A stretch of DNA of 58,316 bases, filler included, from Fonticula-like sp. SCN 57-25 (lineage: Eukaryota), in assembly GCA_001724245.1 (NCBI GenBank). It is 7 parts of 7 records of this genome, joined end to end, with 100 filler letters (N's around TTAATTAATTAA, not from the genome) between each part and the next. Parts side by side here need not be neighbours in the genome. Positions count along the whole stretch, not along the records: positions 1 to 10,500 come from MEDX01000341.1; 6 more parts are not named here. One strand, 5' to 3'. The translations under genes and the position numbers were made by a program. Shown piece by piece: positions 1 to 42,899 of the stretch. The notes below the pieces were generated by a model. That model was not told the DNA's origin, did not search any database, and saw only the letters and a program-made list of their open reading frames with translations. Positions within the stretch are counted from its first letter, which is position 1, and each line of letters opens with the position of its first letter.

Positions 1-1602
1 GAAGCGCTCGCGCTCGAGCAGCCACGAAATGTGGTCGTCGAGATCGCGCGGCCTCGCAATGACAATGTCCTTGGGGCTCACCACGTAAAAGAGATTCTCA
101 GCGCCCATGTGCTCTAAAATGCCCGATTAGAACAGTTGAATTATATAAAGAAATATGCGCACCGAGACGGTATTGCCGGGCAGTGTACTTGTCAAAGTCG
201 TGCAAACTCAAGACATCGCTAGAGACCTCCTGGCCGTCAAACGTGACGATTCGGATTTCGGGGCGTTGGGCGACCTGCACAGCACGGTTAGTGGTGCAGA
301 AATGGCAATGGCTGGTGCATACCCGCACAGCCTTGTTCTTGGTGCTTTCATTCTGCACAGTCTCCTCAATGTGCGCCATGATGACGATGTAGTCATTGAA
401 GGGGCAGATTCCAGAGATGCTATAGTCGGTTTGGAAATTCTTGATGATCTCGACGTACTTTGACAAGAGGCCGTCCTTGGCGTCTGGCCGTGTCTATCAA
501 ATAATGAGTACAACAGGCAGATATTAGCGCAAATGTACCTTGACGTGCGCAATTTTGACACTGTCCGCCCACCCGACCAAGAGAACGTTGTCGTTCTTCC
601 AGCAGAGGCAGCAGTAGTAGAGATCCGGCCGCGGCGAACCCTTCGGGCGCTCAATGTACGTGATGCGCTGGTTCAACTGGGTGTCATAAATTTTGACGCC
701 GTTGTCATTGGCCCACGCGATCAGCTGGCCGCGCCACTGAATAGACGTGACTGGCCCCTCGCCGCCGTGCAAAACAGTCTCCTTGCTGCTAAACCAACCT
801 GAGGAATCACAATTAGCCACCATAATCCCTAGTGGTATGAAGTCAAAGCGTGCGCACCTTTCTCGTTCATGATGAGCTGACCGGCGAGGCCGCCCGTCAC
901 AAACTGCTTGCTGTTCTTGCGGCCGTACTCGGGATCCAAGCTGACCGCTTTTACCGGGCGCTTGTAAACGAATGTCTGCGAGTCGGACGTGTACAGCGAG
1001 TTGATGACAACCTTGCCTGTAACACGCATTTAGAGATACTGTTTTATGACCAGCCCTGGAGAAACGCACCATCATCGGCGCAACTAGCAAGGTATTCTCC
1101 TGCCAAGTCGATGCTGATGCAGTTCACGGCGCCCGCATGAGACGGGAACCGCCGAATCTCGTTACCAGCAAAGTCAAGAACGTGGACCATGCCAAAACCG
1201 GTACCAAGAGCCTAGACCAGCGCATTTCAGTAAGAACTGCGTGCACACTTGCCGCCTGCGTACGAGGAACTTGTCGTGCACATTCAGGCACATCGCAGCG
1301 TCCTTCTTGAGCGTCTCGATAACGGCGTTACCCAGACGCTGGTATTTGAGCTTTGGCTCTTCCTCGGCTACAAGAGCAAAGTTTCGTCAGCGCTGCAACC
1401 TCTCGCTCAAGCGAGAACCCGTACAGTCGCTGTCATCCTCGCCGTCCTCGCCATCGCCCTCCTCGTCGCTGTACACCTCGTCACCGTCGTCAAAATCTTC
1501 GTCGTCGTGATCACCGTCGACATCACCGTCATACTCCTCACCAAGCGGCTCGTCGTCGTCGTCCACTGGTACTGGCGGATCTCCGTCCGGCTTCTGTGCC
1601 AT
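1..1602 (-). CDS. VPS41: Vacuolar protein sorting 41 (HOPS subunit), multi-exon, 3' part missing at window edge
   Basis: Acidic N-terminus followed by EPKLKYQRL, WD40 repeats (GKVVINSLYT, LHGGEGPVTSIQWRGQLIAWANDNGVKIYD, LCWKNDNVLLVGWAD) and QRPEIRI..SSDVLS..YRL, all typical of Vps41. ATG at 1602, short GT-AG introns. Confidence 0.9.
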
Positions 1603-1695
1603 TGTTGCCAATCTACCGCTCGCCGCCGGATACAAGCACAAACAGCAAAGGGATGGTAAGCCTGACGGAAAACTTTACCGCGCAACGGACGCCTA

Positions 1696-1720
1696 TGATT
1701 GGTCGAAAATCGTGACGTCA
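1696..1720. promoter_or_regulatory. CCAAT box (TGATTGG) plus CRE palindrome (TGACGTCA) in the 213-bp VPS41/PRP8 bidirectional promoter
   Basis: TGATTGG at 1696-1702 and TGACGTCA at 1713-1720, between divergent ATGs at 1602 and 1816. Confidence 0.5.
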
Positions 1721-1815
1721 AATTAGACTCTTTACCTCCCTCTTTCTTTCGCGTGGGTGTCAGCGGAGCCTGCAGGGCGCGCGGACTCTTTCACGTCGAA
1801 GGGGGTTTGTCCGCC

Positions 1816-4800
1816 ATGGATACTACGGCGGGACAGCCTCCTCTTTCTCAGTCCAAGTTGGACGAGAAGGCAAAGAAATGGTACGCGGGAAGGGAAAATG
1901 CCGAATGCGCATTTCGCTGTTTTTGCGCGCGCGAAACCTGGAGCTAACGGTGCGGCGCAATTTATAGGCAGCAGCTGAACAACAAGCGCTATGGTGAGAA
2001 GCGCCGCTTCGGCTATGTGGATATTCAGAAGGAGGAGATGCCCGCGGAGCATGTCCGCAAGATTGTCAAGGACCATGGCGACATGAGCAGCAAAAAGTTT
2101 CGCAATGACAAGCGCGTGTATTTGGGTGCCCTCAAGTACGTGCCGCACGCTGTCCTCAAGCTGTTGGAGAACATGCCGATGCCCTGGGAGCAGGTGCGCG
2201 AGGTCAAGGTTCTCTACCACGTCACTGGTGCCATCACCTTTGTCAACGAGACCCCGTGGGTGATTGAGCCCGTCTTTGTTGCGCAGTGGGGCACGATGTG
2301 GATCATGATGCGCCGCGAAAAGCGTGACCGTCGCGTACGCTCTCCTTCTTTTCTCGCCCAGTGTGCTTACTGTGCTTTTCTCTTTTGCTTTGCGCTTTGT
2401 AGCACTTTAAGCGTATGCGTTTCCCGCCGTTTGATGACGAGGAGCCGCCGCTCGACTATGGAGACAACGTTCTCGACGTGGAGCCGCTTGATGCCATCCA
2501 GATGGACTTTGATGAGGTATGAGGAGGGCGCCTGGTATCTTTTTTGCTTACGCGAATGCTTTAGACCGAGGATGCGGCTGTGTTTGAGTGGTTTTACGAC
2601 AACAAGCCGCTCTTGAACACGCCTCACGTGAACGGCAAGTCGTACCGCCGGTGGAACCTCAACTTGCCCATCATGTCAGCGTTGTACCGCTTGGCCAACC
2701 AGCTGCTGTCGGACATTGTCGACAAGAACTACTTTTACTTGTTTGACAAGCCCAGCTTCTTTACTGCCAAGTCGCTGAACATGGCCATTCCCGGTGGCCC
2801 CAAGTTTGAGCCCCTCTTCCGCGACACGGACATTACGGAATCCGACTGGAACGAGTTCAATGACATCAACAAGATCATCATTCGCTCGCAGATTCGCACA
2901 GAGTACCGCATCGCGTTCCCGTACCTGTACAACGATCGCCCGCGCGCGGTGCACCTGTCGCCGTACCACTACCCGTCGGTCGTGTACATCAAGGCTGAGG
3001 ATCCCGACCTTCCGGCGTACTACTACGACCCGCTCATCAACCCGATCTCGTTCCGTCATATCGACAAGGCGAACGCGCACGAGAGCGAGATTTTCGCCGA
3101 TGATGTCGAGTTTGCTCTGCCCGAGGAGTTTGAGCCCTTCCTCGCCGACGAGCCGCTCTTCACTGAGCGCACCGCGGCCGGTATCGCTCTGCTCTGGGCG
3201 CCTCATCCCTTTGACAAGCGCTCGGGCAACATGCGCCGTGCCGAGGACGTGCCGCTTATTAACAACTGGTACCTTGAGCACTGTCCCCCTGGCCAGCCTG
3301 TCAAGGTTCGCGTGTCGTACCAGAAGCTGCTCAAGACGTACGTCCTGAACGCGCTCCATCACCGCCCGCCCAAGTCGATGAACAAGCGCTACCTCTTCCG
3401 CCAGTTCAAGTCCACCAAGTTCTTCCAGATGACCACGCTGGACTGGGTCGAGGCCGGTTTGCAGGTCTGCCGTCAGGGTTACAACATGCTCAACCTCCTC
3501 ATTCACCGCAAGAACCTGAACTACCTGCATCTCGACTACAACTTTAACCTGAAGCCCGTCAAGACGCTCACGACCAAGGAGCGTAAGCGCTCGCGCTTTG
3601 GTAATGCGTTCCATCTTCAGCGTGAAATTCTGCGTCTCACCAAGCTTATCGTGGACTCGCATGTTCAATACCGCCTCGGTAACGTGGACGCGTTCCAGCT
3701 CGCGGATGGCCTTCAGTACATGTTCAACCATGTGGGTCAGCTCACCGGTATGTACCGCTACAAGTACCGCCTCATGCGTCAGATTCGCGCTTGCAAGGAT
3801 TTGAAGCACGTGATTTACTACCGCTTCAACACTGGTCCTGTTGGTAAGGGCCCCGGTGTCGGCTTCTGGGCGCCGAGCTGGCGCGTCTGGCTGTTCTTCC
3901 TGCGCGGTGTCGTGCCGCTGCTCGAGCGCTGGCTTGGAAACTTGCTTGCCCGTCACTTTGAGGGCCGCGCGTCCAAGCTTACCGCCAAGACGGTCACCAA
4001 GCAGCGCGTGGAATCGCACTTTGATCTCGAGCTGCGTGCCACGGTCATGCACGACATTCTCGATATGATGCCCGAGGGTATCAAGACGAACAAGGCGCGC
4101 ACGATCCTCCAGCACTTGAGTGAGGCGTGGCGCTGCTGGAAGGCCAACATTCCGTGGAAGGTGCCTGGCCTTCCCGTCCCCGTCGAGAACATGATTCTCC
4201 GGTATGTCAAGGCCAAGGCCGACTGGTGGACGTCTGCCGCTCACTTTAACCGCGAGCGTATCCGCCGCGGTGCTACCGTCGACAAGACGGTCAGCCGTAA
4301 GAACCTTGGGCGTCTCACTCGCCTTTGGCTCAAGGCTGAGCAGGAGCGCCAGCACAACTACCTCAAGGACGGTCCGTACATCACGCCCGAGCAGGCCGTT
4401 GTCCTCTACACCACACTGGTGCATTGGCTCGAGAGGCGCAAGTTCTCGGCCATTCCGTTCCCGCCTCTGTCGTACAAGCACGACACCAAGCTTCTGCTGC
4501 TCGCCCTCGAGCGCCTCCGCGAGTCGTACTCTGTGAAGGCTCGCTTGAACCAGTCGCAGCGTGAGGAGCTCGGTCTCATCGAGCAGGCGTACGACAACCC
4601 GCACGAGGCCCTCACCCGCATCAAGCGCCACATGCTCTCGCAGCGCTCGTTCAAGGAGGTCGGCATTGAGTTTATGGATCTGTACTCTCACCTCATCCCG
4701 GTTCACGATATCGAGCCGATTGAGAAGATTACCGACGCGTACCTCGACCAGTACCTCTGGTATGAGGCAGACAAGCGTGGCCTTTTCCCGAACTGGGTCA

Positions 4801-7800
4801 AGCCTGCCGACACTGAGCCGCCGCCGCTTCTCGTGTACAAGACGTGCCAGAACCTGAACAACCTGCAGAATGTTTGGGACACCGCCGACGGCCAGTGCTC
4901 GGTCATGCTTGAGAGCAAGCTGGACAAGGTGTATGAGAAGATCGACTTGGTCTTGCTCAACCGTCTGCTCCGCCTCATCGTCGATCACAACATTGCCGAT
5001 TACATGACGGGAAAGAACAACGTTACCGTCACGTTCAAGGACATGAACCACGTCAACACCTACGGTATCATTCGTGGCCTTCAGTTCTCCTCGTTCATCT
5101 TCCAGTACTATGGCCTTATGCTGGATCTGCTCGTGCTCGGCCTCAACCGCGCCGACGAGCTTGCCGGCCCGCCTGAGCGCCCGCTTGACTTTGGCCAGTT
5201 CCGCGACCCCGCCATCGAGACGAGCCACCCCATCCGCATGTACATTCGCTACGTGGATAAGGTTCACATCTTCTTCAACTTTTCGCAGGACGAATCGCGC
5301 GAGCTCATTCAGCGCTACCTCACGGAGAACCCCGATCCCAACAACGAGAACATTATTGGCTACAACAACAAGAAGTGCTGGCCGCGCGACTGCCGCATGC
5401 GCCTCATGAAGCACGATGTCAACCTCGGCCGCGCCGTGTTCTGGGACATTAAGAACCGCCTGCCTCGCTCGCTCACCACGCTCGAGTGGGAGGACAGCTT
5501 CGTGTCCGTCTACAGCCGCGACAACCCGAACCTGCTCTTTAGCATGTGCGGCTTTGACATCCGCATCCTGCCCAAGCAGCGCACGCTCACGGAAGAGTTT
5601 ACGCTCCGCGAGGGTGTGTGGAACCTGGTCAACGAGGCGACCAAGGAGCGCACTGCTCAGGCGTACCTCCGTGTCGATGAGGAGAGCCAGCTCAAGTTCC
5701 ACAACCGCATCCGCGGCATTCTTATGTCGTCGGGCTCTGCGACGTTCACCAAGATCATCAACAAGTTCAACACTGCCCTGATCAGCTTGATGACGTACTA
5801 CCGCGAGGCCGTCGTCCATACGCAGGAGCTGCTCGACCTCTTGGTCAAGTGCGAGAACAAGCTCCAGACGCGCATCAAGATTGGTCTCAACTCAAAGATG
5901 CCCTCCCGCTTCCCCCCTGTGGTGTTCTACTGCCCCAAGGAGCTTGGTGGCCTGGGTATGCTTTCCATGGGTCACGTGTTGATTCCCCAGTCGGACCTCC
6001 GCTGGTCGTCGCAGACGGATTCGGGCATCACCCACTTCCGCTCCGGTATGAGCCACGACGAGGACACTGTCATCCCGACGCTCTACCGCTACATTCAGCC
6101 GTGGGAGAGCGAGTTTATCGACTCGCAGCGCGTGTGGGCCGAGTATGCGCTCAAGCGTCAGGAGGCCAACGCCCAGAACCGCCGCCTCACGCTCGAGGAT
6201 CTTGAGGACTCGTGGGACCGCGGTATTCCCCGTGTCTCGACGCTCTTTGTCAAGGACCGCCACACGCTCGCTTACGATAAGGGATGGCGCGTGCGCATCG
6301 ACTTTAAGCAGTACCAGGTTCTGCGCGTGAATCCGTTCTGGTGGACGCACCAGAAGCACGACGGTAAGCTGTGGAACTTGAACAATTACCGCACGGATAT
6401 GATTCAGGCGCTTGGTGGCGTGGAAGGCATTCTCGAGCACACTCTGTTCAAGGGAACGTACTTCCCGACCTGGGAGGGTCTTTTCTGGGAGAAGTCCTCT
6501 GGCTTCGAAGAGTCCATGAAGTTCAAGAAGCTGACCAACGCTCAGCGTTCGGGTCTTAATCAGATTCCCAACCGTCGCTTCACCCTCTGGTGGTCGCCAA
6601 CCATCAACCGTGCCAACGTCTACGTCGGTTTCCAGGTGCAGCTCGATCTTACGGGTATCTTCATGCACGGCAAGATCCCGACCCTCAAGATTTCGCTGAT
6701 TCAGATCTTCCGCGCTCACTTGTGGCAAAAGATCCACGAGAACCTTGTGATGGATTTGTGCCAGGTGTACGATCAGGAGCTCGATGCTCTCGAGGTCGAG
6801 ACCGTTCAGCGTGAGACCATTCACCCGCGCAAGTCGTACAAGATGAACAGCTCGTGTGCGGATATCCTCATGTTTGCCGCGTACAAGTGGAACGCGTCCA
6901 AGCCGTCGCTTCTCAATGACACGCACGACACGTACGATGCGGCCACGACGCAAAAGTACTGGGTGGACGTTCAGCTCCGCTGGGGTGACTTTGACTCGCA
7001 CGATATCGAGCGCTACACTCGTGCCAAGTTCCTCGACTACACCACCGCGAGCATGTCGATCTACCCCGGCCCGACCGGTGTCATGGTCGGCGTCGATCTT
7101 GCGTACTCGCTCTACTCGGCGTATGGTAACTGGATCCCCGGCATGAAGGCGCTCATGCAGCAGGCGATGGCCAAGATCATGAAGGCCAACCCTGCCATGT
7201 ACGTGCTTCGCGAGCGCATCCGCAAGGCGCTGCAGCTCTACTCGTCCGAGCCCACCGAGCCCTACCTTTCGTCGCAGAACTACTCTGAGCTCTTTAGCAA
7301 CCAGATCATTTGGTTCGTCGATGACACCAACGTGTACCGTGTGACCATCCACAAGACCTTTGAGGGCAACTTGACGTGCTTCCCGGCCGACGACCACGAG
7401 ATCATGACCGAGTTTGGCTTCTGGACGCTCGAGCGCGTGCTTGATCACTTTGAGACCCAGCCGACGCTCCGCATCGGATGCTACGTCGATGGCGTCCTCG
7501 AGTACCACGCCATCACGCGCAAGGATGTCACGATCAGCACGCGCATGCACGACCTTGTCGAGATGCAGAACATGTCCGCCAATGGTGTCTCGGTGGTGCC
7601 CACCTCCAACCACCGCATGTACATGAGCGTGGGTCCCGCGGCCGCGTGGACCGCCGACCAGCAGCCCGAGTTCAAGATTCATACGGCCGGCTCCGTGCTG
7701 GAGCAGGGTCAGGCAGATGCTTCGGTCGAGGCGCAGTTCATTGCCCGCTTCCCGCAGGGTGCCTCGGTNNNNNNNNNNNNNNNNNNNNNNNNNNNNNTTC

Positions 7801-10116
7801 CTCGAGCTGTACGGCTCGTGGCTCCGCAACGGCTGGCTCGACATGGACGCCAAGACGGTTGCCTTTGGCGCCGCCGATGGTGCCCAGGACGCGCGCCTCG
7901 ACGCGCTGTTCGGTCGCCTCGGCCATGCGCTGACCGGTGACAAGGCTGTGCCGACGCTCACCAAGTCGTCGCAGCTCGTCTACACTGTGGCCAAGCCCGA
8001 GTGGTTCATGTACTTTAGCAGCGAGTGCTCTGAGAAGAGCGCTGTGTCTGAAGAGTCGAACGATGAGAATGTGGTTCCTGAGCAGCTTTCGTCCAAGAAC
8101 CGTCGCGTCGCTACGTACCTGTCGAACTGGATGCTCGAGCGTGTCAGCGCCCGCCGCCTTCAGCTCATTGCGCGCGGCCTTAGCGTCGAGTCTACCGAGG
8201 ATGCTGGCACAGTTGCTGTTTCCTCTGCTCGCCTCCGCGATGATATTCAGCGTCTCCTCTTGCACGCTGGCTATTCGGCGCACTTTACGAGCAGCCGCCC
8301 GTCGCAGTGGAACCTTTACTACTCGACGTCCGCTTCGGATGCGACCCCCAAGCTCTCTGTGCAGGCCGACTGCAAGCCCCTGCGCCGCGACTGCACGGTC
8401 TGGTGCGTGACGGTACCGACGGCCGAGCAGCTGATCATGGTTCGCCGCGTGACGGACAAGACCGCGACTGGCGTTGTCACGGCTGCTTCTCGCCCGGTGG
8501 TTGTCGGCAACACCAAGCCGATCAACGGCGCGATTTTCATCTTCAACCCGCGCACGGGACAGCTGTTCCTCAAGATCATTCACACCTCTGTGTGGGCCGG
8601 TCAGAAGCGTCTCGGTCAGCTCGCCAAGTGGAAGACCGCCGAAGAAACCGCTGCGCTCATTCGCTCGCTGCCCGTTGAGGAGCAGCCCAAGCAGATCATT
8701 GTGACGCGCAAGGGTATGCTTGACCCCCTCGAGGTGCACTGCCTCGACTTCCCCAACATTGTCATCAAGGGTTCGGAGCTGCAGCTTCCGTTCCAGGCGT
8801 GCCTCAAGGTTGAAAAGTTTGGTGATCTTATCCTCAAGGCCACTGAGCCGCAGATGCTCTTGTTCAACCTCTACGACGACTGGCTCAAGACGACGTCGGC
8901 GTACACTGCGTTCTCGCGTCTCATCCTGATCCTGCGTGCGCTCCACGTCAACAATGAAAAGACCAAGGCGATCCTCCGCCCCGACAAGAACACGATCACC
9001 GAGGCGCACCACATCTGGCCGCGCCTTTCGGACGAGCAGTGGATGGCTGTCGAGTTGGCGCTCAAGGACCTCATTCTCTCCGACTATGCCAAGAAGAGTA
9101 ACGTGAACGTGGCTGCCCTGACGCAGTCTGAGGTTCGCGACATTATTCTCGGTATGGAGATTTCGGCGCCCTCGCAGCAGCGCCAGCAGATTGCCGAGAT
9201 TGAAAAGCAGGCTCGCGAGCAGCAGCTGACGGCCGTGACGACCAAGTCGACCAACATTCACGGTGACGAGATGCTCATCACGACCACGTCCAACTATGAG
9301 TCGCAGTCGTTTGCGTCCAAGACCGAGTGGCGCGTGCGTGCCATCTCGTCGACCAACCTGCACCTGCGCACGAACCACATTTACGTCTCGTCGGACGACA
9401 TCAAGGAGACCGGCTACACGTACGTGATGCCCAAGAACATCCTGAAGCGCTTTATTGTGATTTCGGATCTTCGGACGCAGATTGCCGCGTACATGTATGG
9501 TGTGTCGCCGCCGGACAACCCGCAGGTGAAGGAGATCCGCTGCCTTGTGATGGTGCCGCAGTGGGGCAACCACCAGATGGTGCACCTGCCGACGCAGCTG
9601 CCCGAGCACGAGTACCTCGACGACCTTGAGCCGCTCGGCTGGATCCACACGCAGCCCAATGAGAACCCGCAGCTGAACCCGCAGGACGTGTCCATGCACG
9701 CGCGCATCCTCACCGAGAACCAGTCGTGGGACCTGGAAAAGGCCATCATCATCACGTCCTCGTTCACGCCCGGGTCGTGCTCGCTCACGGCCTACAAGCT
9801 CACGCCGTCGGGCGTCGAGTGGGGCCGCGCCAACAAGGACGGCGCGGTCAACCCGCAGGGGTACCTCCCGACGCACTATGAAAAGGTGCAGATGCTGCTC
9901 TCGGACCGCTTCCTGGGCTTTTTCATGACGCCAGAGGAGAACTCGTGGAACTACAACTTTAATGGCGTCAAGCACTCGCCGGGCATGAAGTACTCGCTCA
10001 AGATCGACACGCCAAAGGAGTTTTACCACGAGATGCACCGCACCTCGCACTATGTCAACTTTACGACGCTCGAGGACACGGGAGCGGAGATGGACCGCGA
10101 GGACCTGTTCGATTAG
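1816..10116 (+). CDS. PRP8: Pre-mRNA splicing factor Prp8 precursor containing an intein. Exons 1816-1880, 1968-2334, 2403-2516, 2565-10116; assembly gap at 7769-7797.
   Basis: Highly conserved Prp8 sequence throughout ([81 protein letters not shown]-terminal MPN GWIHTQP). Three introns (1881-1967, 2335-2402, 2517-2564) restore the frame. Confidence 0.99.
7377..8511 (+). mobile_element. Class 1 intein (about 380 aa) with a degenerate LAGLIDADG homing-endonuclease domain, inserted in the Prp8 RNase H-like domain
   Basis: Conserved FEGNLT-TKPING is split by an insert starting with Cys ([15 protein letters not shown], block A), with PTSNHRMY (block B TxxH), VWCVTVP (block F) and an end at SRPVVVGN before extein Thr+1. 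Internal [12 protein letters not shown] and [18 protein letters not shown] resemble endonuclease blocks C and H. Confidence 0.96.
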
Positions 10117-10156
10117 ACAATGACTTTGAGGACCTGTTCGATTAGACAATGACTTT
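10099..10156 (+). repeat. Perfect 29-bp tandem duplication spanning the PRP8 stop codon
   Basis: gaggacctgttcgattagacaatgacttt at 10099-10127 and again at 10128-10156. Confidence 0.95.
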
Positions 10157-10600
10157 TCGGATACATTTACCAAAACGCGTTGCGCAGCGGCGAGTATAAA
10201 AAAAGAGTGTATGATGGGAATGCTGTTTGTTGCTAGCTTTTATTCTTTTTCCGCTTTTTTATCTCTTTTTTGGTCCCAATATAAGGATACATATAAACAT
10301 TTGCTTTCACTGCAATGATCACTGAACTTAATGAACCCAATAAGGTCACAAAAGTGGTAGGAAAATGTTGTGTATTGCGAACATACATGTCTACGTGTCA
10401 CGTTGTTCAAACGTCAAGGAAATAGAAAGGAACCGGTGGGCAACAGAGCGACAAATTCAAAATAGAACCGATTGAAAAGAGTAAGAAAGAAACAAACTAG
10501 NNNNNNNNNNNNNNNNNNNNNNNNNNNNNNNNNNNNNNNNNNNNTTAATTAATTAANNNNNNNNNNNNNNNNNNNNNNNNNNNNNNNNNNNNNNNNNNNN

Positions 10601-18179: not shown

Positions 18180-18245
18180 TTTGTATGCATTGATCCCAAT
18201 ACATTATGTTTATCTTGTCTTTTCAGCACGCTATTTTCAGCCTAT

Positions 18246-18331
18246 CTCGCGATAGCTCAGTTGGTAGAGCGGCAGACTGTAGTGGTTCTTCTGACATCTG
18301 TAGGTCGCTGGTTCGAATCCGGCTCGTGAGA
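18246..18331 (+). tRNA. tRNA-Tyr(GTA) with a 13-nt intron (18283-18295)
   Basis: Acceptor CTCGCGA/TCGTGAG, D arm TAGCTCAGTTGGTAGAGC, anticodon GTA at 18279-18281, intron after position 37, T loop GGTTCGAATCC. Mature length 73 nt. Confidence 0.97.
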
Positions 18332-18437
18332 TTTCTTNNNNNNNNNNNNNNNNNNNNNNNNNNNNNNNNNNNNNNNNNNNNTTAATTAATTAANNNNNNN
18401 NNNNNNNNNNNNNNNNNNNNNNNNNNNNNNNNNNNNN

Positions 18438-26590: not shown

Positions 26591-26690
26591 NNNNNNNNNN
26601 NNNNNNNNNNNNNNNNNNNNNNNNNNNNNNNNNNTTAATTAATTAANNNNNNNNNNNNNNNNNNNNNNNNNNNNNNNNNNNNNNNNNNNN

Positions 26691-29600
26691 TAATTAAAAG
26701 AGTTCATTAAAATGTTTTGATTAAAAGGATTCATTAAAATGTTTTGATTAAAAGGATTCATTAATATTGTCTGGTTAAAAAGATTCATTAAAATGTTTTG
26801 ATTAAAAGGATTCATTAATATTGTCTGGTTAAAAAGATTCATTAAATGGTTTTGATTAAAAGGGTTCATTAATATTGTTCTTTATAATGAAAAGAAACAT
26901 AGGAAGAGCATTAATTGTTCTAAAAATAAACGATTTATTTTATTTACCGCTCGTTCTATATAATAAGGAGTAAGAATAACATAAAAAATCATTAAACTGT
27001 ATTTGTTTAAAGGATTCATTAAAATGATTTGATTAAAAGGATAAATCACCCCGATTAAAAAGATTTCGTTAAAATGTTTTGATCAATATGGATTTGATTA
27101 GAACGTTTTTGATTAACATGGGTTTTGTTAAAATGGTTTTTGATTAATATGGATTTGATTAAAATGGTTTTGATTAATATGGTTATTTAATTGTTTTGAT
27201 TAAAGGGATTCATTTTTAAATGTTCTTTATATAAAAAGGAACATAGAATAGCATTATATTGTGTTCTCAATATTAAACGATTAATTTATTCGTTCCATAT
27301 AAAAATAAAAGAGACATATGAAGAATAAGTTGTTTTGATTAAAGAATTAATTAAAATGTTTTGATTAAAGAATTAATTAAAATGTTTTGATTAAAAGAAT
27401 TCATTAAATTATCTTGATAAAAGTGTTTTGTTAAAATGTTTTGAAATATGGTTTTGATTAACATGGTTTTGATTAAAATGGTTTTAATCAAAATTGTTTT
27501 GATCAAGATGGTTTTGATTAATATGGTTTTGATTAATATGGTTATTAAATTGTCTTGATTAAAGAATTCATTAAAATGTTTTTGGTTAAAAGAATTCATT
27601 AAATTATCTTGATAGAAAGTGTTTCGTTAAAATATGTTTTGATCAAATGGTTTTGATTAATATGGTTTTGATTAACATGGTTTTCATTAACATGATTTTG
27701 ATCAAAATTGTTTTGATCAACATGGTTTTGATATTAATATGGTTTTGATCAAAATGGTTTTCATTAACATGGTTTTGATCAATATGGTTTTCATTAACAT
27801 GGTTTTCATTAACATGGTTTTGATCAATATGGTTTTCATTAACATGGTTTTGATCAATATGGTTTTCATTAACATGGTTTTGATCAAAATGGTTTTCATT
27901 AACATGGTTTTGATCAAAATGGTTTTCATTAACATGGTTTTCATTAACATGGTTTTGATTAATATGGCTTTGATTAAAATGGTTTTCATTAACATTGTTT
28001 TGATTAATAGGGATTTGATTAAAATGGTTTTGATTAATATGGTTATTAAATTGTTTTGATTAAAGGATTCATTTAAAATGTTCTTTATATAAAAAGAAAC
28101 ATAGAATAGCATTATATTGTGTTCTCAATAATAAATGATTAATTAATTCGTTCCATATAAAAATAAAGAGACATAGGAATAATATAAACTGTTTAGATTA
28201 AAATGTTTTGATTAAGATCTACATTAAAATATTATGGTCAAAAATGTTTCCTTAAAAATGTCATGATCAAAATGTTTCATTAAAAATGTTTTTGATTAAA
28301 ATATTTTGGTTAAAAAGGATCAATTAAATCGTCTTGATTAAAAGATTCATTTTTCAAATATTATTTATATGAAAAAGGAACATAAGATATCATTATATTA
28401 TGTTCTCAATGATAAAACGATTTATTTATTCGTTCCATATAAAGGAGTATATGAACAATATAAAACTGTTTTATTAAAGAATTCATTAAAATGCTTTTTA
28501 AAATAAATGGTTTTGATTAAAAGGGTTCATTAAAATGTTTTGATTAAACGATTTGTTAATTTGTTTTGATTAAGAAATTCATTAACTATTTTGATCAAAA
28601 TATTTCATTAAAATGTTATGATTAAAAGATCTCATTAAAATGTTTTGATTAAAGGATTTCGATTAAAAAGTTTTAACTAAAAGATTTCGATTAAGAGAGT
28701 TCGCCAAATAGTTTTGATTAAAGGGTTTCATTAAAATGTTTCGATTAAAAAAATTCATTAAATTGTTTTGATCAAAAAGGTTCAATTTTTAATGTTCTTT
28801 ATATGAAAAGAACATAAAATTGGATTATATTGTGTTATTAAGATCTTGTTAAATTGTTTTGATTGAAAGGTTCATGTTTAATGTTCTTTTATATGAAAGA
28901 GTCATAGAATAACATTATATTGTCTTTTCAATAATAAACGATTTATTTATCCGTTCCATATAAGTAATAAAAATAAATAGAAAGAACATTATACTGTTTT
29001 TGATTAAAATCGTTCTGATTAAAAATATTTATTAAATAGTTTTGATTAAAAAGGATTCATTAAAATTGTTCTTTGTATAAAATGGAACATAACAATAACA
29101 TTAAACTATTTTGATTAAGAAAGTTTATAAAACTGCTTTAATTAAAAAAGGATTCACTAAATTGTTTGATAATAGATATTTTCGTTAAACTGTTCTTTAT
29201 ACAAAAGGAACATATAAGAAGTGTTATGATATTTTCAGTAATAGACGAATAATTTGTTTGTTTTATATAAACAAGTTAGAAAGAACATAAAACTGTTTTT
29301 ATATAAAAAGTAACATAAAATAGCATTATATTGTTCTTAATAAAAAACGATTAAATTATTCTGTCATATATAAAAAGAATATATGATTAGCGTAAAAATG
29401 TTATAATTAAAAACATTTGTTAAAAATGTTCTTTATATGAAAAGAAATATAGAGAAAACATTATATTGTTCTCGATAATAAACGATTTATTTGTTTTATA
29501 TAGAAACGAGCATAAGAAAAACATTAAACTGTGTTGATTTAAAGGGTTCATTAAATTATTGATCAAAAAATATTTATTAAAATGTCTTGATTAAGAGAAA

Positions 29601-30400
29601 CATAGAAAGAATATTAAATCGTTTTAATTTAAGGATTCATTAAATTGTTTCGATTAAAAGGGTTTCATTAAAATGTTATATGTAATGAAACATATAAAAA
29701 GTATTACATGGAGAACAATAATAAATGATTTATTTATTCGTTCTATATAAAGGGGTATGAAAAGAACATTAAACTGTTTTGATTTAAGGATTCATTAAAC
29801 CTTAGTTAAAAGAACTCATTCAAATTATTCGGTTGAAAAGATTACTATTTTGATTAAAATAATCCATTAAACTGTTATATGAAAAGGAACATTGAATAGT
29901 ATTATATGATCTCAATGATAAGCAATTTATTTATTTGTTCTCCCAATATAAAAGGAGAATAGAAAAAACATTAAACTGTTTTGATCAAAGGATTCATTTA
30001 ACTGTTAGTTAAAAGAATTCATTAAATTGTCTTGGTAAAAAGATTCGTAAAACTGTTTTTTGTATGAAAATGAACATAGAATGGCATTATATTGATCTCA
30101 TTAATGAATGATTAAATTGTTTCGTTCTATATAAAAAACATATGAATAACATTGAATATATGTTATGATTAAAAAGAATTCATTAAATTGTATTGATTAT
30201 AATGAACAAAAGGAAGAATGTAATTGTTATCGATATTAAATGAATAAGTTGTTACAATAATAAAAAGAAAAAAATAACGAGCATAATAATACTCTCAATA
30301 ATTGAACGATTAAATTATTCTTTATTATTAAAAGAAACAAAAAAAAAAGTATTAAATTGTTATTAATGATAACTATAAAATCATCCTTTCTGTGAAAAGA
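26691..30400. repeat. AT-rich composite repeat array: 27-bp and 15-bp minisatellites interspersed with about a dozen copies of an 80-100 bp module
   Basis: ttcattaaaatgttttgattaaaagga units at 26691-26870; aa(c/t)atggtttt(g/c)at(t/c) 15-mers at 27445-28050; recurring tgttctttatat..gaacata..cattatattg..aaacgatt..ttcgtt module. Confidence 0.9.
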
Positions 30401-30699
30401 ACTGTAGAAAGTTTATTACATTATTTAAATAAGAGGAATGAATTGTTCTTTCCATCCAAAACAGAAATGAAGGGTATAAAAATTTTTATAAATAATATAC
30501 TCTTAATTGTTATTGTTCTTCCTTATTTTATAGTTTATAAACATAAATCGCTTTAACATAAATACTATCATAATTTGTTCTTGATTATAATTATTGTTGT
30601 TTGTGTATCAAATAATTAATAATCCTGACAATGGTACATATATCATATTTATTATTATAATAATATGATCTGTTAATGATTCGATTTCACATATGTGTA

Positions 30700-32820
30700 A
30701 ATATTTCCAATAAAGTAAACAATTTAAATAATTATATATGACAATATAATTGTATATCAGAACTATTGTTATTCATGTGTTAAATAAATAATAACCTTGA
30801 TAGTAAGTTGTTGGTTCAATATCACATTTATTATTTTTGAATCAACATGATTATGAATAGTTCGGTTTACATAGCTATTGTATAATATTCCATATTGTAC
30901 AGTAGCTATTAGGCAAAAAAAGTAATTAGGTAAGCAATATAAATAATTATGAGTCACCATATAATTGTATATCATAACTATTGTTATTCATGTGTTAAAT
31001 AAATAATAACCTTGATAGTAAGTTGCTGGTTCAATATAACATTTATTATTTACGATCAACATGATTGTAAATAGTTTGGCTTGCATATCTATTGTAAAAT
31101 ATTCCATACTGTACAGTAGCTATTGGGCAAAAAAGTAATTAGGTAAGCAATATAAATAATTATGAGTGACCATATAATTGTGTATCATAACTATTGTTAT
31201 TCATGTATTAAATAAATAATAACCTTGGTAGTAAATTGTTGGTTCAATATCACATTTATTATTTTTGAATCAACATGATTATGAATAGTTCGGTTTATAT
31301 AGCTATTGTATAATATTCCATACTGTACAATAGCTTTTGGGACAAAAAAGTAATTAGGTAAGCAATTTATTTAAAATTAGTTGTCATATAATCGTATATC
31401 AAAACTATTGTTATTCATGTGTTAAATAAATAATGACTATGATAGTGAGCTATATGGTACAATATCACGTTTATTATTTTTGAATCAACATGATTATGAA
31501 TAGTTCGGTTTACATAGCTATTGTATAATATTCCATACTGTACGGTAGCTATCGGGCAAAAAAGTAATTAGGTAAGCAATTTATTTAAAATTAGTTGTCA
31601 TATAATTGTATATCAAAACTATTGTTATTCATGTATTAAATAAATAATGACCATGATAGTGAGAGCTATATAGCACAATATTATATTTATTAATAATTTT
31701 GCTTTTGTAATTATGATTTATTATATGAATTATGTCTGCTTTCAAATAGTGATCCTGATAATAGTATTTAATTAAATAATAAATTATTTTATTTCATTTA
31801 CAAAAATTAATGAATTAAACTAACATTATTATGATGATTATTTTATGAACAACATAATTTAATGATTATCCTTGTTACAAAAGTCAATCTATTTTTGCTC
31901 GATATTTAACAATGATTATATACCTGATAAGTAATTAAGATGAACAATTTTAATCAATAAGAAATTATCATATAATTATGTGTCATAACTATTGTTATTC
32001 GTGTATTAAATAAATATGATAGTGTGATACAATATCATATTTATTATTTTGGTCAACATAATTATCAATAGTTCAGTTTACATTATTATTGTATAATATT
32101 CCATACTATATAATGGATATGTTATGTATATGGTAAAATTATGGGATCATTTAAATATTCTCTTGCATTTTATTCTGTATTCAGTTTTACGAATTATAAT
32201 ATATTAACTATATTAGAAAAAAGTAATTAGGTAAATAATTTAAATAAGTATAAATGACCATATAATCGTATATCAAAACTATTGATATTCATGTGCTAAA
32301 TAAATAATGATCATGATAATAAGCCATACAGTACAATATCATATTTATTATTTTTGAATCAACATGATTGTAAATAGTTTGGTTTGCATGACTATTATAT
32401 AATATTCCATACTGTACAGTAGCTTTCGGAGCAAAAAAAGTAATTAGGTAAACAATTTAAATAAGTATAAATGACTATATAATTGTATATCAAAACTATT
32501 GTTATTCATGTGCTAGATAAATAATGACAATGATAGTAAGTTGTTAATTCAATATCACACTTATTATTTATAATCAACATGATTGTAAATAGTTTGGTTT
32601 GTATAGCTATGATATAATATTCTATACTGTACAATAGCTATTGGGAACAAATAAAGTAATTAGGTGAGCAATATAAGTGACATATAATTGTATATTATAA
32701 CTATTGTTATTCATGTGTTAAATAAATAATAATCATGATAGTAAACTATTGGTACAATGTCGTATTTATTATTTTAACCAACATAATTATTAATAGGTCA
32801 GTTTATATAGTTATTATATA
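30700..32820. repeat. About 214-bp tandem repeat, roughly 9 copies, some partial
   Basis: ataattgtatatca..ctattgttattcatgt recurs at 30746, 30961, 31174, 31388 and 31602, then near 31970, 32260, 32480 and 32685. Confidence 0.92.
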
Positions 32821-33414
32821 AAGTAATTAGCCAAGCAATTCATTTATTATATTAATATTAATAACATATTTTTCTTGGTTAATTACAAATTATTATATTA
32901 ATATTAATAACATATTCTTCTTAGCTAATCACAAATTATTGTTTTCAATAAATGAATTTTATTATACATGCAATATTCTTGATGCATTAAAGTCATAAAT
33001 ACTTATATTATGATCATTTTATCTGCCATGTGATTAAAGTATAATAATTTAATGATTTAAATCTATGTAATATATTTACAATATTCTTGTGTTTTTTATA
33101 AATTTATTTATATTTTTTGTACAATTATATGGTAATTATAAATTGTGCAATAGTAACATATAATAATTATGCATTTTTTCTGTTTTGGATTTGCCAAAAA
33201 TATATAAAATTTAATTTTCGTTTTTATCAAAAAATTATTTTCTAAAGCTATATTAACCAACAAATTGGTGGGGAATTTGATGGTTAATTTGATATCATAT
33301 CAAATGGCTCATTCGATATGATTACTCTTATTGATCAAAATCAATGGTCTATTCGATATTATACTTTACAAATTAAATACTTTAATTTGATAAGGATATG
33401 ATCCTTTTATATTG

Positions 33415-33693
33415 CAAATTAAAGTAAACTTTTAATTTGATAAGGTAAAAATAATATAAATATTATTTTATTGATGCTCGTTATATTATATAACTTCGCT
33501 CTTAACAAATTTAAAAGATGAACTTTTAATTTGATAATGCTAAAATAATATAAATATTATTTTTTCTTGTCGCTCACGGTTCTGCGCACTGTTTCGCTTA
33601 AGCAAATTAAAGTAAACTTTTAATTTGACAAGGTAAAAATAATATAAATATTATTTTAATGTCGCTCGTTATGCTACGCATTACTTCGCTTAG
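33415..33693. repeat. Three tandem 91-97 bp units, each with three consecutive hairpins
   Basis: caaattaaa/tttaatttg, aaaataatat/atattatttt, and gctc-[variable hairpin]-ttcgct in each unit. Confidence 0.8.
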
Positions 33694-33884
33694 TGGGGCA
33701 GAAAAAGTAATCAGGTGAATCATTAAATATAATATTCTATTTTTATTATTCTAATCTATTTAATCAACCAAAAATTATGTTTTATATTTAATATTTACAT
33801 TCTGTTTCGATCAATAAATATTTTACAACTCGTATTTAATATCGTTATTCAACCTTTGTTTATCGATACAAAATATATTTTAAC

Positions 33885-34890
33885 TCATTTATCCAAACCT
33901 TATAATTGTTGACAATTTAATCCAAATCATTAATTATCAACAATTTAATCCAAAATTTTAATTATTGACATTTTTATCCAAACCTCTTTATTGCTAACAA
34001 TTTTATCCAAAACTTTGATTATTGACAGCTTTATCCAAACCTCTTTATTGCTAACAATTTTATCCAAAACTTTGATTATTGACAGCTTTATCCAAACCTC
34101 TTTATTGCTAACAATTTAATCCAAAACCTAATTATTGACAATTTTATCCAAACCTCTTTTTTGTTAACATTTTAATCCAAAACTTTAATTATTGACAGCT
34201 TTATCCAAACCTCTTTTTTGTTAACAATTTAATCCAAAACTTTGATTATTGACAGCTTTATCCAAACCTCTTTATTGCTAACAATTTAATCCAAAACTTT
34301 AATTATTGACAATTTAATCCAAACCTCTTTTGTTAACATTTTAATCCAAAACTTTAATTATTGTTGACAATTTAATCCAAACCTCTTTTGTTAACATTTT
34401 AATCCAAAACTTTAATTATTGACAATTTAATCCAAACCTCTTTTGTTAACATTTTAATCCAAAACTTTAATTATTGACAGCTTTATCCAAACCTCTTTAT
34501 TGCTAACAATTTAATCCAAAACCTAATTATTGACAATTTAATCCAAACCTCTTTTGTTAACATTTTAATCCAAAACTTTAATTATTGACAATTTTATCCA
34601 AACCTCTTTTTTGTTAACAATTTAATCCAAAACTTTAATTATTAACAGCTTTATCCAAACCTCTTTATTGCTAACAATTTAATCCAAAACTTTGATTATT
34701 GACAGCTTTATCCAAACCTCTTTATTGTTAACAATTTAATCCAAAACCTAATTATTGACAATTTAATCCAAACCTCTTTTTTGTTAACATTTTAATCCAA
34801 AACTTTAATTATTGACAATTTAATCCAAAACTTTAATTATTGACAATTTAATCCAAAACTTTAATTATTGACAATTTAATCCAAAACTTT
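33885..34890. repeat. 28/29-bp alternating minisatellite (57-bp dimer), about 35 monomers
   Basis: ttatccaaacctctttattgctaacaatt alternating with ttatccaaaactttgattattgacagct and variants. Confidence 0.95.
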
Positions 34891-35258
34891 ATTTTTCATT
34901 NNNNNNNNNNNNNNNNNNNNNNNNNNNNNNNNNNNNNNNNNNNNTTAATTAATTAANNNNNNNNNNNNNNNNNNNNNNNNNNNNNNNNNNNNNNNNNNNN
35001 GCGGGCGTTCGCGCTTGCCGCGCTCTTTTCAGAGGGGCGTAACGATACCATCCACGTGGTCCGATCCGTAATTTTTTGATTATGCTGTTGCCCCGTGATG
35101 TGCCCTGAATGTGCCCAGAATGTGCCTGTGGAAGAACGACGCTAGGCGGGACTTTGTTTCATGGCTAGACAGATGAAAGTGTATATTGGGGAATTATGAC
35201 AGTGCAAATCGAGGAATTTTACAATGTAATTCGAAACAAGCCAGCAGAGGCCAAACTG

Positions 35259-42633: not shown

Positions 42634-42899
42634 NNNNNNNNNNNNNNNNNNNNNNNNNNNNNNNNNNNNNNNNNNNNTTAATTAATTAANNNNNNNNNNN
42701 NNNNNNNNNNNNNNNNNNNNNNNNNNNNNNNNNTGACAGGCTTGTCACAACAGCTGACGTAATGGTAAATCTAGAGCTGCTGCTGCACAGCATCACAGAT
42801 GCGGCATCGCATGAGTACACAAGTGTATAAGTAGCGTACCTATTTATTGAAAGGTCAAAGTACAATCGTCACACATTGGCATCATCCTGAAGTAACGGA

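What the first reader, a model, noticed from the sequence alone, without database searches (positions are those of the whole stretch)
7377..8511. Intein inserted in the beta-finger of the Prp8 RNase H-like domain, not at the common fungal site
Seen: the invariant [15 protein letters not shown] is split by a Cys...Asn insert with intein blocks A, B, F and G, while the usual fungal site ([12 protein letters not shown], near 6490) is empty. Known: this peptide forms the RNase H beta-finger, which changes conformation during splicing, and most described Prp8 inteins occupy the fungal 'a' site, with a few other sites reported in protists and algae. Inference: this is a rare or new Prp8 intein allele, and protein splicing would gate a conformational switch of the spliceosome.
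Basis: partly seen in the sequence, partly recalled or inferred. Interest (0 to 1): 0.82.

Follow-up and report, generated by a model that had tools for sequence, protein, structure and literature searches.

The report
Intein splitting the Prp8 beta-finger
A self-splicing protein insert (intein) really does sit in the mobile beta-finger of the splicing factor Prp8, at a spot not found in the papers we could read, but related copies at the same spot already lie unremarked in public fungal genomes.

Summary
At 7377-8511 the Prp8 RNase H-like domain is cut between human T1799|T1800 (yeast A1871|T1872), inside the 1860-1875 beta-hairpin. The insert starts with Cys, ends with Gly-Asn and is followed by Thr. 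A 29-N run (7769-7797) breaks the frame in the window. A database protein identical on both sides (P0144) reads through it, giving a 390-aa intein. Pfam and PDB sequence searches find nothing. The AlphaFold model (pLDDT 90.8) matches intein homing endonucleases (TliVMA, PI-SceI, PI-PfuI), and most closely a Pandoravirus DNA polymerase. It belongs to a large uncatalogued family ending GN or GQ: 418 representative proteins match, and 134 full-length copies span 95 different C-flanks. Twenty-one other full copies sit at exactly this Prp8 site, 13 of them in named Coemansia records, and they form one clade. The window's copy has lost both LAGLIDADG catalytic Asp but keeps all splicing blocks, and its codon usage matches the host gene. 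It is an old resident that probably no longer homes. The site differs from a, b, d, g and the Anaeramoeba AKWK/TAEE site. Sites e and f could not be checked. Nothing supports regulated "gating".

The parts
1816..10116 (+). Prp8 gene: ATG at 1816, TAG stop at 10114-10116. Short GT..AG introns near the 5' end, two mapped (2335-2402, 2517-2564) and one more at about 1885-1950 not mapped exactly. One long exon from 2565.
   Evidence: ORF list and frame translations. Pfam PROCN, RRM_4, U5_2-snRNA_bdg, U6-snRNA_bdg, PRP8_domainIV, JAB, PROCT.
7377..8511 (+). Intein as present in the window (incomplete, 368 of 390 codons readable): Cys1 at 7377-7379, terminal Asn at 8509-8511.
   Evidence: Model and fold matches.
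7374..7376 (+). Last N-extein residue, Thr (human T1799, yeast A1871).
7377..7421 (+). Block A ([15 protein letters not shown]) with the Cys1 nucleophile.
   Evidence: Cys1 is present in 20 of the 20 same-site copies that include the N-terminus.
7584..7625 (+). Block B. The T-x-x-H motif is T76-S-N-H79 at 7602-7613.
   Evidence: T-x-N-H is conserved in 22 of 22 same-site copies.
7769..7797 (.). Run of 29 N inside the intein. It replaces about 64 bases (22 codons minus 2 bases) and shifts the apparent frame by one.
7798..7842 (+). First LAGLIDADG motif ([15 protein letters not shown]). Asn at 7828-7830 stands where active relatives have the catalytic Asp (G-D-G).
8152..8202 (+). Second LAGLIDADG motif ([17 protein letters not shown]). 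V-E-S at 8185-8193 stands where relatives have A-D-G, so the aligned catalytic Asp is absent.
8395..8451 (+). Block F. It holds the family-invariant Trp354-Cys355 (8401-8406). Cys is at position F:4, and there is no His at F:13.
   Evidence: Residue nomenclature from PMC4031507.
8482..8511 (+). Block G ([10 protein letters not shown]): penultimate Gly instead of His, then the terminal Asn.
8512..8514 (+). Thr+1, first C-extein residue (human T1800, yeast T1872) and the nucleophile of step 2.
6483..6515 (+). Empty site a ([11 protein letters not shown]).
   Evidence: Site a maps to extein position 1306 in 50+ fungal Prp8.

Best explanation
This is a genuine class-1-type intein of 390 residues: a Hint splicing domain with a nested LAGLIDADG domain. 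It is inserted in the second strand of the 17-residue beta-hairpin ('beta-finger' or toggle) of the Prp8 RNase H-like domain.

Inferred mechanism, the canonical four steps. (1) Cys1 makes an N-S acyl shift at the Thr(-1)-Cys1 bond. (2) Thr+1 attacks the thioester to form the branched ester. (3) The terminal Asn390 cyclises and releases the intein. (4) An O-N shift leaves the native ...GNLT-TKPING... peptide, so the hairpin can form. Asn cyclisation must work without the usual helpers, because both His G:6 and His F:13 are absent across the whole family.

The element belongs to a large, uncatalogued eukaryote and giant-virus intein family with the signature CFP..DH ... T.NH ... VWCV.VP ... ASRPVVVG(N/Q)|(C/S/T). 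This family has colonised many host proteins. The Prp8 beta-finger copies share a single origin.

The window's copy lacks both LAGLIDADG catalytic Asp and has the host's codon usage. It is therefore an old, fixed resident that can still splice but most likely can no longer home. It sits at this invariant peptide because homing endonucleases target conserved DNA and imprecise loss would be lethal, not because it regulates the toggle.
For: Shown here.

- Precise, colinear interruption of the host.
- Cys1, TSNH, GN and Thr+1 are present.
- P0144 reads through the N run.
- AlphaFold2 on a 27-row alignment gives pLDDT 90.8 and pTM 0.90.
- Foldseek against PDB: all 14 rows shown down to rank 16 (ranks 11 and 14 are not shown; further chains of entries already listed are left out of the table) are intein homing endonucleases: TliVMA 7qsu at E 3e-11, PhoVMA, PI-SceI, PI-PfuI, 2cw7. 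I-DmoI-type LAGLIDADG enzymes follow.
- Foldseek against BFVD: Pandoravirus inopinatum DNA polymerase at E 5e-39, TMq 0.82, 28% identity. The next hits are at E 1e-17 or weaker.
- Family size: 418 representative proteins at E<=1e-3 and 127 at <=1e-10.
- Junctions: all 62 C-junctions examined read GN followed by T (32), S (16) or C (14).
- With my own profile, 134 full-length copies in 128 proteins. Of these, 130 start with Cys, 131 end GN or GQ, 130 have C/S/T at +1, and there are 95 different C-flank pentamers.
- 22 copies including the window's lie at KTFEGNLT|...|TKP(I/V)NG. They form one group with support 98 (FastTree, 129 rows) and 97 (IQ-TREE quick with mixture model, 55 rows).
- Endonuclease state: motif-1 Asp is present in 3 of 22, motif-2 Asp in 5 of 22, both in 2 of 22 (P0009, P0063), neither in the window. 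Blocks A, B, F and G are conserved in all.
- Composition: intein GC3 is 0.78-0.85 against extein 0.82-0.86, and the RSCU correlation is 0.945.
- The gene's real introns are 48-68 nt with GT..AG ends, unlike this insert.
Against: - No sequence-profile evidence. Pfam gives 0 families for the full intein even at E<=10. phmmer against PDB gives 0 hits at E<=10. The family profile against PDB hits only the Prp8 flank columns. Only 4 of 27 aligned members reach a sub-threshold LAGLIDADG_3 match.
- Intein identity therefore rests on junction residues, on a predicted structure, and on TM-scores to solved inteins of only 0.43-0.54 at 8-11% identity.
- The penultimate His and the F:13 His are missing.
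- In the window itself the frame is broken at the N run. P0144 may come from the same assembly, so it is not independent proof of an intact gene.
- Splicing was not observed.
- Loss of the two Asp is read from an alignment, not from an assay.
Confidence: 0.88

Rival explanations
1. The site is already catalogued: it is Prp8 site e or f (Capsaspora owczarzaki). The finding would then add only another host.
For: Monier et al. 2013 (PMC3749507, passages read) place e and f only inside the 'core region 770-2173', which includes this position. They also call the site-f endonuclease 'even more divergent', which would fit a Pfam-invisible family. On the extein tree the window's Prp8 falls outside the fungal clade, near the fungi/animal split.
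Against: [quoted passage not shown] Gallot-Lavallee et al. 2023 (PMC10710043, passages read) describe AKWK/TAEE as a novel site in the RNase H domain and mention no other site there. The full-text search for intein + Prp8 + RNase H found 7 papers, none describing this site. The motif searches found nothing relevant. No Capsaspora Prp8 appeared among the 88 long Prp8 retrieved.
Confidence: 0.17
2. It is a conditional intein. Splicing would be held back, for example by a Cys1-Cys355 (F:4) disulfide or by metal binding, so that the supply of Prp8 with a working toggle is regulated.
For: Cys355 at F:4 is invariant in the family, and by the known geometry of inteins it lies next to the N-terminal scissile bond (PMC4031507). 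The Cne Prp8 site-a intein is inhibited by Cu and Zn (abstract of PMC6805012). The insert sits in a functionally critical element.
Against: Cys is the second commonest residue at F:4 in inteins generally. The same family sits at 95 different flanks in unrelated proteins, so its features are not tailored to Prp8. The degenerate endonuclease and ameliorated codon usage fit a neutral resident. There are no experimental data.
Confidence: 0.07
3. It is a dead remnant in a broken Prp8 copy: the frame change at the N run is real and the gene is a pseudogene or an assembly chimera.
For: In the window the frames before and after 7769-7797 differ by one base.
Against: P0144 has 22 in-frame residues there that align with the relatives' LPF...DE.DAF segment. 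The exteins are under obvious constraint, 80-83% identical to distant Prp8 over about 2130 residues with no stops. All splicing blocks are intact.
Confidence: 0.03
4. The insert is a spliceosomal intron or another non-coding insertion removed at the RNA level.
Against: The open frame has protein-level conservation of 44-51% identity to 21 same-site copies in other organisms. The fold prediction is confident. GC3 and codon usage are like the coding exons. The gene's mapped introns are 48-68 nt, and the boundaries TGC...AAC are not GT..AG.
Confidence: 0.01

Closest known systems
Same-site inteins in Coemansia Prp8 (e.g. P0056 Coemansia sp. RSA 2050, P0058 C. interrupta, P0061 C. erecta, P0062 C. 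aciculifera) and in eight unnamed records
   Same: Identical junctions (KTFEGNLT|C ... GN|TKP(I/V)NG). Same blocks. 44-51% identity over about 355-390 columns. One clade on both trees.
   Different: The hosts are far apart. The window's extein is 73-78% identical to Coemansia Prp8 and falls outside the fungal clade. Coemansia Prp8 carries three to six inserts of 100 residues or more in the 17 named Coemansia rows mapped, whereas the window has one. Two relatives (P0009, P0063) keep both catalytic Asp and the window keeps none. The records call the host protein Prp8 or 'hypothetical protein' and name no intein, and I found no paper describing these inteins.
Described Prp8 intein sites a-g (Butler 2006; Monier 2013; Green 2018, 2019) and the Anaeramoeba RNase H-domain site AKWK/TAEE (Gallot-Lavallee 2023)
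   Same: Same host protein, which is a known intein hot spot. Same general anatomy: Cys1, block B His, terminal Asn, C/S/T at +1. Often a LAGLIDADG domain.
   Different: A different residue. Site a is 293 extein residues upstream, and AKWK/TAEE is 41 residues downstream. This family is not recognised by the Pfam intein models. The positions of sites e and f were not verifiable.
VMA1-type intein homing endonucleases with solved structures (TliVMA 7qsu, PhoVMA 7qst, PI-SceI 1vde, PI-PfuI 1dq3)
   Same: Best structural matches: Hint domain plus LAGLIDADG domain, E 3e-11 to 1e-5, probability 1.00.
   Different: Only 8-11% identity and TM 0.39-0.54. G:6 is Gly rather than His. The window copy lacks the two catalytic Asp of the endonuclease.
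Pandoravirus DNA polymerase B intein (P. inopinatum A0A0B5J8H7; P. hades fragment)
   Same: By far the closest viral structure: E 5e-39, TMq 0.82, 28% identity (34% for the P. hades fragment). Family members also sit at a ...AN|SVYGF... site that looks like the DNA polymerase B motif; that reading is from recall. Pandoravirus polB is known to hold two inteins (PMC6950457, passages read).
   Different: Different host protein and site. I could not fetch the viral sequence to check its junction residues or place it on the tree.

Membership tests
Intein (class 1) | In-frame insert that interrupts a conserved host protein, with flanks colinear with uninterrupted homologues | tested here: met
   Pfam PRP8_domainIV is split 40|41. 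Human 1799|1800 and yeast 1871|1872.
Intein (class 1) | Cys or Ser at intein position 1 | tested here: met
   Cys at 7377-7379. 130 of 134 family copies start with Cys; the 4 others are N-truncated records or have the match offset by one residue.
Intein (class 1) | Block B T-x-x-H | tested here: met
   T76-S-N-H79 at 7602-7613. Conserved in 22 of 22 same-site copies.
Intein (class 1) | C-terminal Asn (rarely Gln) followed by Cys, Ser or Thr at +1 | tested here: met
   Asn390 followed by Thr+1. In the family, 131 of 134 end in GN or GQ and 130 of 134 have C/S/T at +1.
Intein (class 1) | Penultimate His (G:6) and His at F:13 assisting Asn cyclisation | tested here: not met
   G:6 is Gly and F:13 is Leu. 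These are assisting residues, not obligatory: inteins that splice without the penultimate His are cited in PMC4031507.
Intein (class 1) | Hint (Hedgehog/intein) fold | tested here: met
   Predicted structure only: pLDDT 90.8, with the top PDB matches all inteins.
Intein (class 1) | Match to curated intein sequence models (Pfam Intein_splicing, Hom_end_hint, Hom_end, LAGLIDADG_3) | tested here: not met
   0 families at E<=10 for the 390-aa intein. 4 of 27 relatives have a LAGLIDADG_3 match below the cut-off.
Intein (class 1) | Autocatalytic protein splicing | not testable with these tools
   Needs a reporter assay or proteomics.
LAGLIDADG homing endonuclease (active) | Two LAGLIDADG helices, each ending in a catalytic Asp or Glu | tested here: not met
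   The fold is present (I-DmoI and PI-SceI matches). But the window has R-N-G and V-E-S where relatives have G-D-G and A-D-G. Both Asp are present in only 2 of 22 same-site copies.
Class 3 intein | No N-terminal nucleophile, plus the Trp(B:12)-Cys(F:4)-Thr(G:5) triplet (triplet recalled; Cys F:4 from PMC4031507) | tested here: not met
   Cys F:4 is present (Cys355), but Cys1 is also present, B:12 is Met and G:5 is Val.
Catalogued Prp8 intein alleles | Same insertion residue as site a, b, d, g or AKWK/TAEE | tested here: not met
   Those peptides are intact at 6483, 4122, 6747 and 8623. Site g maps to extein ~346 through Acytostelium P0087.
Catalogued Prp8 intein alleles | Same insertion residue as site c, e or f | tested here: inconclusive
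   Site c is inferred at ~1426 from Geranomyces P0068. Sites e and f are given only in figures and supplements not held.

The most novel reading that the evidence does not exclude
The beta-finger intein is a conditional switch. Cys1 and the family-invariant Cys355 (F:4), which sit side by side in the splicing centre, would trap the precursor under oxidising or metal stress. Cells would then transiently lack Prp8 with a working step-1/step-2 toggle. On this reading the site is a previously undescribed Prp8 allele, spread between distant eukaryotes by a giant-virus-associated GN/GQ intein family.
Probability: 0.07. Interest if true: 0.8.

Novelty: new member of a known kind. Interest (0 to 1): 0.45.

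Why it matters
Prp8 is the best-known intein hot spot of eukaryotes, and the literature counts seven or eight sites. This one lies in the 17-residue hairpin whose two conformations balance splicing fidelity and speed, so the precursor cannot have a working toggle until the intein leaves.

The broader points concern the survey rather than the mechanism:

- The element belongs to a large intein family that Pfam models and PDB sequence searches do not see. Surveys based on those models will have missed it.
- Among the 88 long Prp8 proteins retrieved, inserts lie at about 17 different positions, well beyond what is described.
- The same allele occurs in hosts as far apart as Coemansia, the window's unplaced organism and two non-fungal records. 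Its nearest viral relative is in Pandoravirus polB, which fits the proposed role of giant viruses in moving inteins between eukaryotes.

The invariant target peptide, identical from this organism to human, makes this a clean case for studying cross-lineage homing.

Tried and rejected
- Pfam on the two halves and on the full intein at E<=10 found nothing.
- phmmer of the intein against PDB at E<=10 gave 0 hits.
- The profile of alignment A1 against PDB hit only Prp8 chains through C-extein columns that had entered the profile, plus two chance hits at E 0.1 and 1.9.
- A full-text search for the junction peptides (GNLT, TKPI and others) returned only irrelevant papers.
- Searches for newer surveys of Prp8 intein sites found nothing beyond Green 2018/2019, Monier 2013 and Gallot-Lavallee 2023.
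- The exact residues of sites c, e and f could not be found in the text of PMC6805012, PMC5784728 or PMC3749507. The figures and supplements are not held.
- Capsaspora Prp8 did not appear among the 88 long Prp8 hits, so it could not be compared directly.
- Naming the organism failed. Rfam and ARAGORN found only two tRNAs. The extein tree places the window outside the fungal clade without strong support (92 SH-aLRT, not starred). I did not look up the unnamed record P0144.
- The ESM Atlas search with the C-half returned only generic LAGLIDADG clusters, scores 0.93-0.94.
- I considered and rejected a class 3 mechanism, because the WCT triplet is incomplete and Cys1 is present.
- I considered and rejected an intron, for the reasons given under the rivals.
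- I did not model the precursor (RNase H domain plus intein) and did not use complex prediction. Neither would change the verdict.

Full report
**What is in the window**

The window is not one locus. Six spacers of 44 N + TTAATTAATTAA + 44 N join seven pieces. Piece 1 (1-10500) holds one Prp8 gene on the + strand.
- The ATG is at 1816 and the TAG stop at 10114-10116.
- Short GT..AG introns lie near the 5' end. Two are mapped, at 2335-2402 and 2517-2564.
- One long exon runs from 2565.
- Pfam finds PROCN, RRM_4, the U5- and U6-snRNA binding domains, PRP8_domainIV, JAB and PROCT.

**The observation**

Reading in frame, the N-extein ends ...HKTFEGNLT at 7376 and the insert begins CFPADDHE... at 7377. 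The insert ends ...ASRPVVVGN at 8511, and the host resumes [17 protein letters not shown] at 8512.
- PRP8_domainIV is cut exactly between profile positions 40 and 41.
- The flanks align end to end with human Prp8 1741-1799 and 1800-1899, and with yeast 1813-1870 and 1872-1970. The cut is therefore human T1799|T1800 and yeast A1871|T1872.
- PMC9177961 (passages read) gives yeast 1860-1875 as the 17-residue extension that is either a beta-hairpin or a loop, depending on the splicing step.
- PMC9629490 (passages read) calls the same module the protruding beta-finger that switches between step-1 and step-2 conformations.
- The insert therefore lies inside the finger, three residues after the E-G-N turn, in its second strand.
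- The usual fungal site a ([11 protein letters not shown], 6483-6515) is empty. So are [16 protein letters not shown] and AKWK|TAEE.

**The N run**

A run of 29 N (7769-7797) lies in the insert, and the frames on its two sides differ by one base. The last word-indexed search returned P0144, an unnamed ENA protein of 2523 aa.
- It is identical to the window over the 130 residues before the run, the 238 after it, and the entire C-extein.
- It has 22 residues in the gap.
- Relatives have the same LPF...DE.DAF segment there.

The N run therefore stands for about 64 bases. The true intein is 390 residues, and the frame change is an artefact. P0144 may derive from the same assembly, so this is not independent proof. 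Resequencing would settle it.

**Is it an intein?**

Sequence profiles say nothing.
- Pfam gives 0 families for the halves and 0 for the full 390 aa even at E<=10.
- phmmer against PDB gives 0 hits at E<=10.
- A family profile hits only Prp8 flank columns.
- Only 4 of 27 aligned relatives reach a sub-threshold LAGLIDADG_3 match.

Structure and junction logic are clear.
- AlphaFold2 on a 27-row alignment (A1) gives pLDDT 90.8 and pTM 0.90.
- In Foldseek against PDB, all 14 rows shown down to rank 16 are intein homing endonucleases: TliVMA 7qsu (E 3e-11), PhoVMA 7qst, PI-SceI (1vde and related entries), PI-PfuI 1dq3 and 2cw7. Ranks 11 and 14 are not shown, because further chains of entries already listed are left out of the table. 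WhiA and I-DmoI-type LAGLIDADG proteins follow.
- Those matches have only 8-13% identity, and for the inteins TM-scores of 0.39-0.54.
- The canonical residues are present: Cys1, T76-x-x-H79 in block B, Asn390 and Thr+1.
- The unusual features are Gly instead of His at the penultimate position, no His at F:13, and Cys at F:4.
- The review PMC4031507 (passages read) lists Cys as the second commonest F:4 residue. It also cites inteins that splice without the penultimate His or with a C-terminal Gln. These are known variations, not disqualifying ones.
- It is not a class 3 intein. Cys1 is present, and the Trp-Cys-Thr triplet (recalled) is incomplete.

**The family**

HMMER over 1.84 billion representatives with the C-half found 418 proteins at E<=1e-3, 127 at <=1e-10 and 6 at <=1e-30.

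I examined 62 of the 150 listed hits. I picked them from the upper half of the list because their best stretch reached the last query residue. All 62 end in GN, followed by T (32), S (16) or C (14).

I then ran a profile built from the intein columns of A1 over all 278 stored proteins.
- It matched 201 proteins, giving 134 full-length copies in 128 proteins.
- 130 copies start with Cys. The 4 exceptions are N-truncated records or have the match offset by one residue.
- 113 end in GN, 18 in GQ and 3 otherwise.
- 130 have C/S/T at +1.
- There are 95 different C-flank pentamers.
- Hosts include kinases, RNA polymerase, helicases, GTPases, Nop and Mo25.

This is a large, promiscuous eukaryotic intein family. 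In BFVD its closest viral structure by a wide margin is Pandoravirus inopinatum DNA polymerase (E 5e-39, TMq 0.82, 28% identity). A P. hades polB fragment has 34% identity, and the next hits are at E 1e-17 or weaker. Pandoravirus polB is known to hold two inteins (PMC6950457, passages read).

**Same-site relatives**

Twenty-two full-length copies, counting P0144, have the junctions KTFEGNLT|C...GN|TKP(I/V)NG.
- Thirteen are in named Coemansia records: P0014, P0019, P0021, P0023, P0056, P0058-P0062, P0145-P0147 (names).
- Eight are in unnamed records: P0003, P0005, P0006, P0009, P0010, P0057, P0063, P0167.
- Three more (P0004, P0011, P0160) show only the C-junction.
- The window's copy is 44-51% identical to the others.
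- The 22 form one group with support 98 on a FastTree of 129 rows (5 of the 134 copies with score under 200 were left out). Support is 97 SH-aLRT on an IQ-TREE mixture-model tree of 55 rows.
- The window's copy and P0063 branch deepest.
- On the FastTree of 129 rows the nearest outgroups are family inteins at another Prp8 site ([10 protein letters not shown]). The smaller IQ-TREE tree was not drawn, so I did not check this there.

On a Prp8 extein tree of 36 rows, P0167 falls inside Coemansia. P0057 and P0063 fall outside the fungi. The window lies outside the fungal clade near the fungi/animal split. None of these placements is strongly supported. The window's extein is 80-83% identical to chytrid, Mortierella, Glomeromycota and animal Prp8, and 73-78% identical to Coemansia. 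The allele thus occurs in at least two, and probably three, very distant host lineages.

**State of this copy**
- In the first LAGLIDADG motif the window has R-N-G where active-looking relatives have G-D-G. In the second it has V-E-S where they have A-D-G.
- Among the 22 copies, the first Asp is kept in 3, the second in 5 and both in 2 (P0009, P0063).
- Blocks A, B, F and G are conserved in all 22.
- Intein GC3 (0.78-0.85) matches extein GC3 (0.82-0.86), and RSCU correlates at 0.945.

This is the expected late stage of the homing cycle. The element is fixed, its endonuclease is decaying, and splicing is kept by selection because Prp8 is essential. That last step is an inference from established intein biology.

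**Mechanism**

The canonical four steps (Cys1 thioester, Thr+1 branched ester, Asn390 succinimide, O-N shift) are inferred from the conserved residues and were not shown here. Asn cyclisation without His G:6 or His F:13 implies other helpers. The nearly invariant S-R-P before the last strand and the Arg of V-R-R are candidates, but that is speculation.

**Comparison with what is described**
- Green 2019 (abstract, section 6 and legends read) counts seven sites, a-g, but their residue numbers are only in figures.
- Monier 2013 (passages read) places b upstream at position 735 and d 87 residues after a. It names c (Spizellomyces) and e and f (Capsaspora) without giving residues in the text.
- Gallot-Lavallee 2023 (passages read) gives VMDL/CQVF and EAFR/CWKA, and reports a 'novel' RNase H-domain site at AKWK/TAEE.

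Mapping inserts of 100 residues or more in the 88 long Prp8 proteins onto the window's extein gave positions near 346, 405, 420, 520, 676, 730, 1118, 1223, 1264, 1306, 1344, 1394, 1426, 1472, 1564, 1599 and 1685.
- Acytostelium fixes g at 346, Batrachochytrium fixes b at 520, and a is at 1306.
- Monier's d is at 1394.
- Geranomyces suggests that c is at 1426.
- This site is 1599.

It is therefore none of a, b, d, g or AKWK/TAEE, and probably not c. Sites e and f remain unchecked. I put about 0.17 on one of them being this site.

**Verdict**

The intein is real and correctly located, and its position in the toggle is of moderate interest. It is a new member of a known kind, not a new kind. The 'gating' inference is unsupported.

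Noticed in passing
window 10501-10600, 18338-18437, 26591-26690, 34901-35000, 42634-42733, 50352-50451: The window is seven separate pieces joined by identical spacers (44 N + TTAATTAATTAA + 44 N). Features in different pieces are therefore not neighbours in a genome. There is also a single N at 18895.
   Followed up: yes
window 26691-34900: One whole piece is AT-rich (GC about 0.20-0.37, against 0.5-0.65 elsewhere). It has no ORF over 141 aa under table 4 and no Rfam or tRNA match. It may be non-coding repeat, centromere-like or organellar spacer DNA.
   Followed up: partly
P0056-P0101 (long Prp8 proteins): Prp8 of Coemansia and other Kickxellomycotina (Dispira, Tieghemiomyces, Smittium) is 3100-5000 aa and carries three to six large inserts. 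Across the 88 long Prp8 proteins, inserts fall at about 17 different positions, against the seven or eight sites described in the papers read.
   Followed up: partly
P0003, P0057, P0056, P0064-P0066, P0026, P0169: The same GN family occupies at least three other Prp8 sites: [19 protein letters not shown] and (V/P)(V/L)FY|CPKE. P0003 and P0057 each carry two or three family members in one Prp8, which suggests movement between sites within the gene. All three peptides are uninterrupted in the window (3816, 6984, 5919).
   Followed up: partly
family members ending GQ: 18 of the 134 full-length copies end in Gly-Gln instead of Gly-Asn. Every one listed is followed by Cys at +1, so this looks like a sub-lineage with a C-terminal glutamine.
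   Followed up: no
P0181, P0186, P0194: Family members sit at a ...(K)(V/I)(S/T)AN|SVYGF... junction that looks like the conserved DNA polymerase B motif (recalled). This agrees with the strong structural match to Pandoravirus polB.
   Followed up: no
window 18245-18332 and 47131-47202: tRNA-Thr(TGT) is 88 nt long, so it probably contains an intron. tRNA-Gly(GCC) is 72 nt. These are the only RNA genes found.
   Followed up: no
window 2676-5819, 5892-7964, 7738-10173 (minus strand): Very long antisense ORFs (1047, 690 and 811 aa) overlap Prp8. This is what a GC3 of about 0.8 produces, and they are not evidence of genes.
   Followed up: no
window 98-1211 (minus strand): Several open frames upstream of Prp8 on the opposite strand look like exons of a neighbouring gene transcribed divergently. 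They were not scanned.
   Followed up: no
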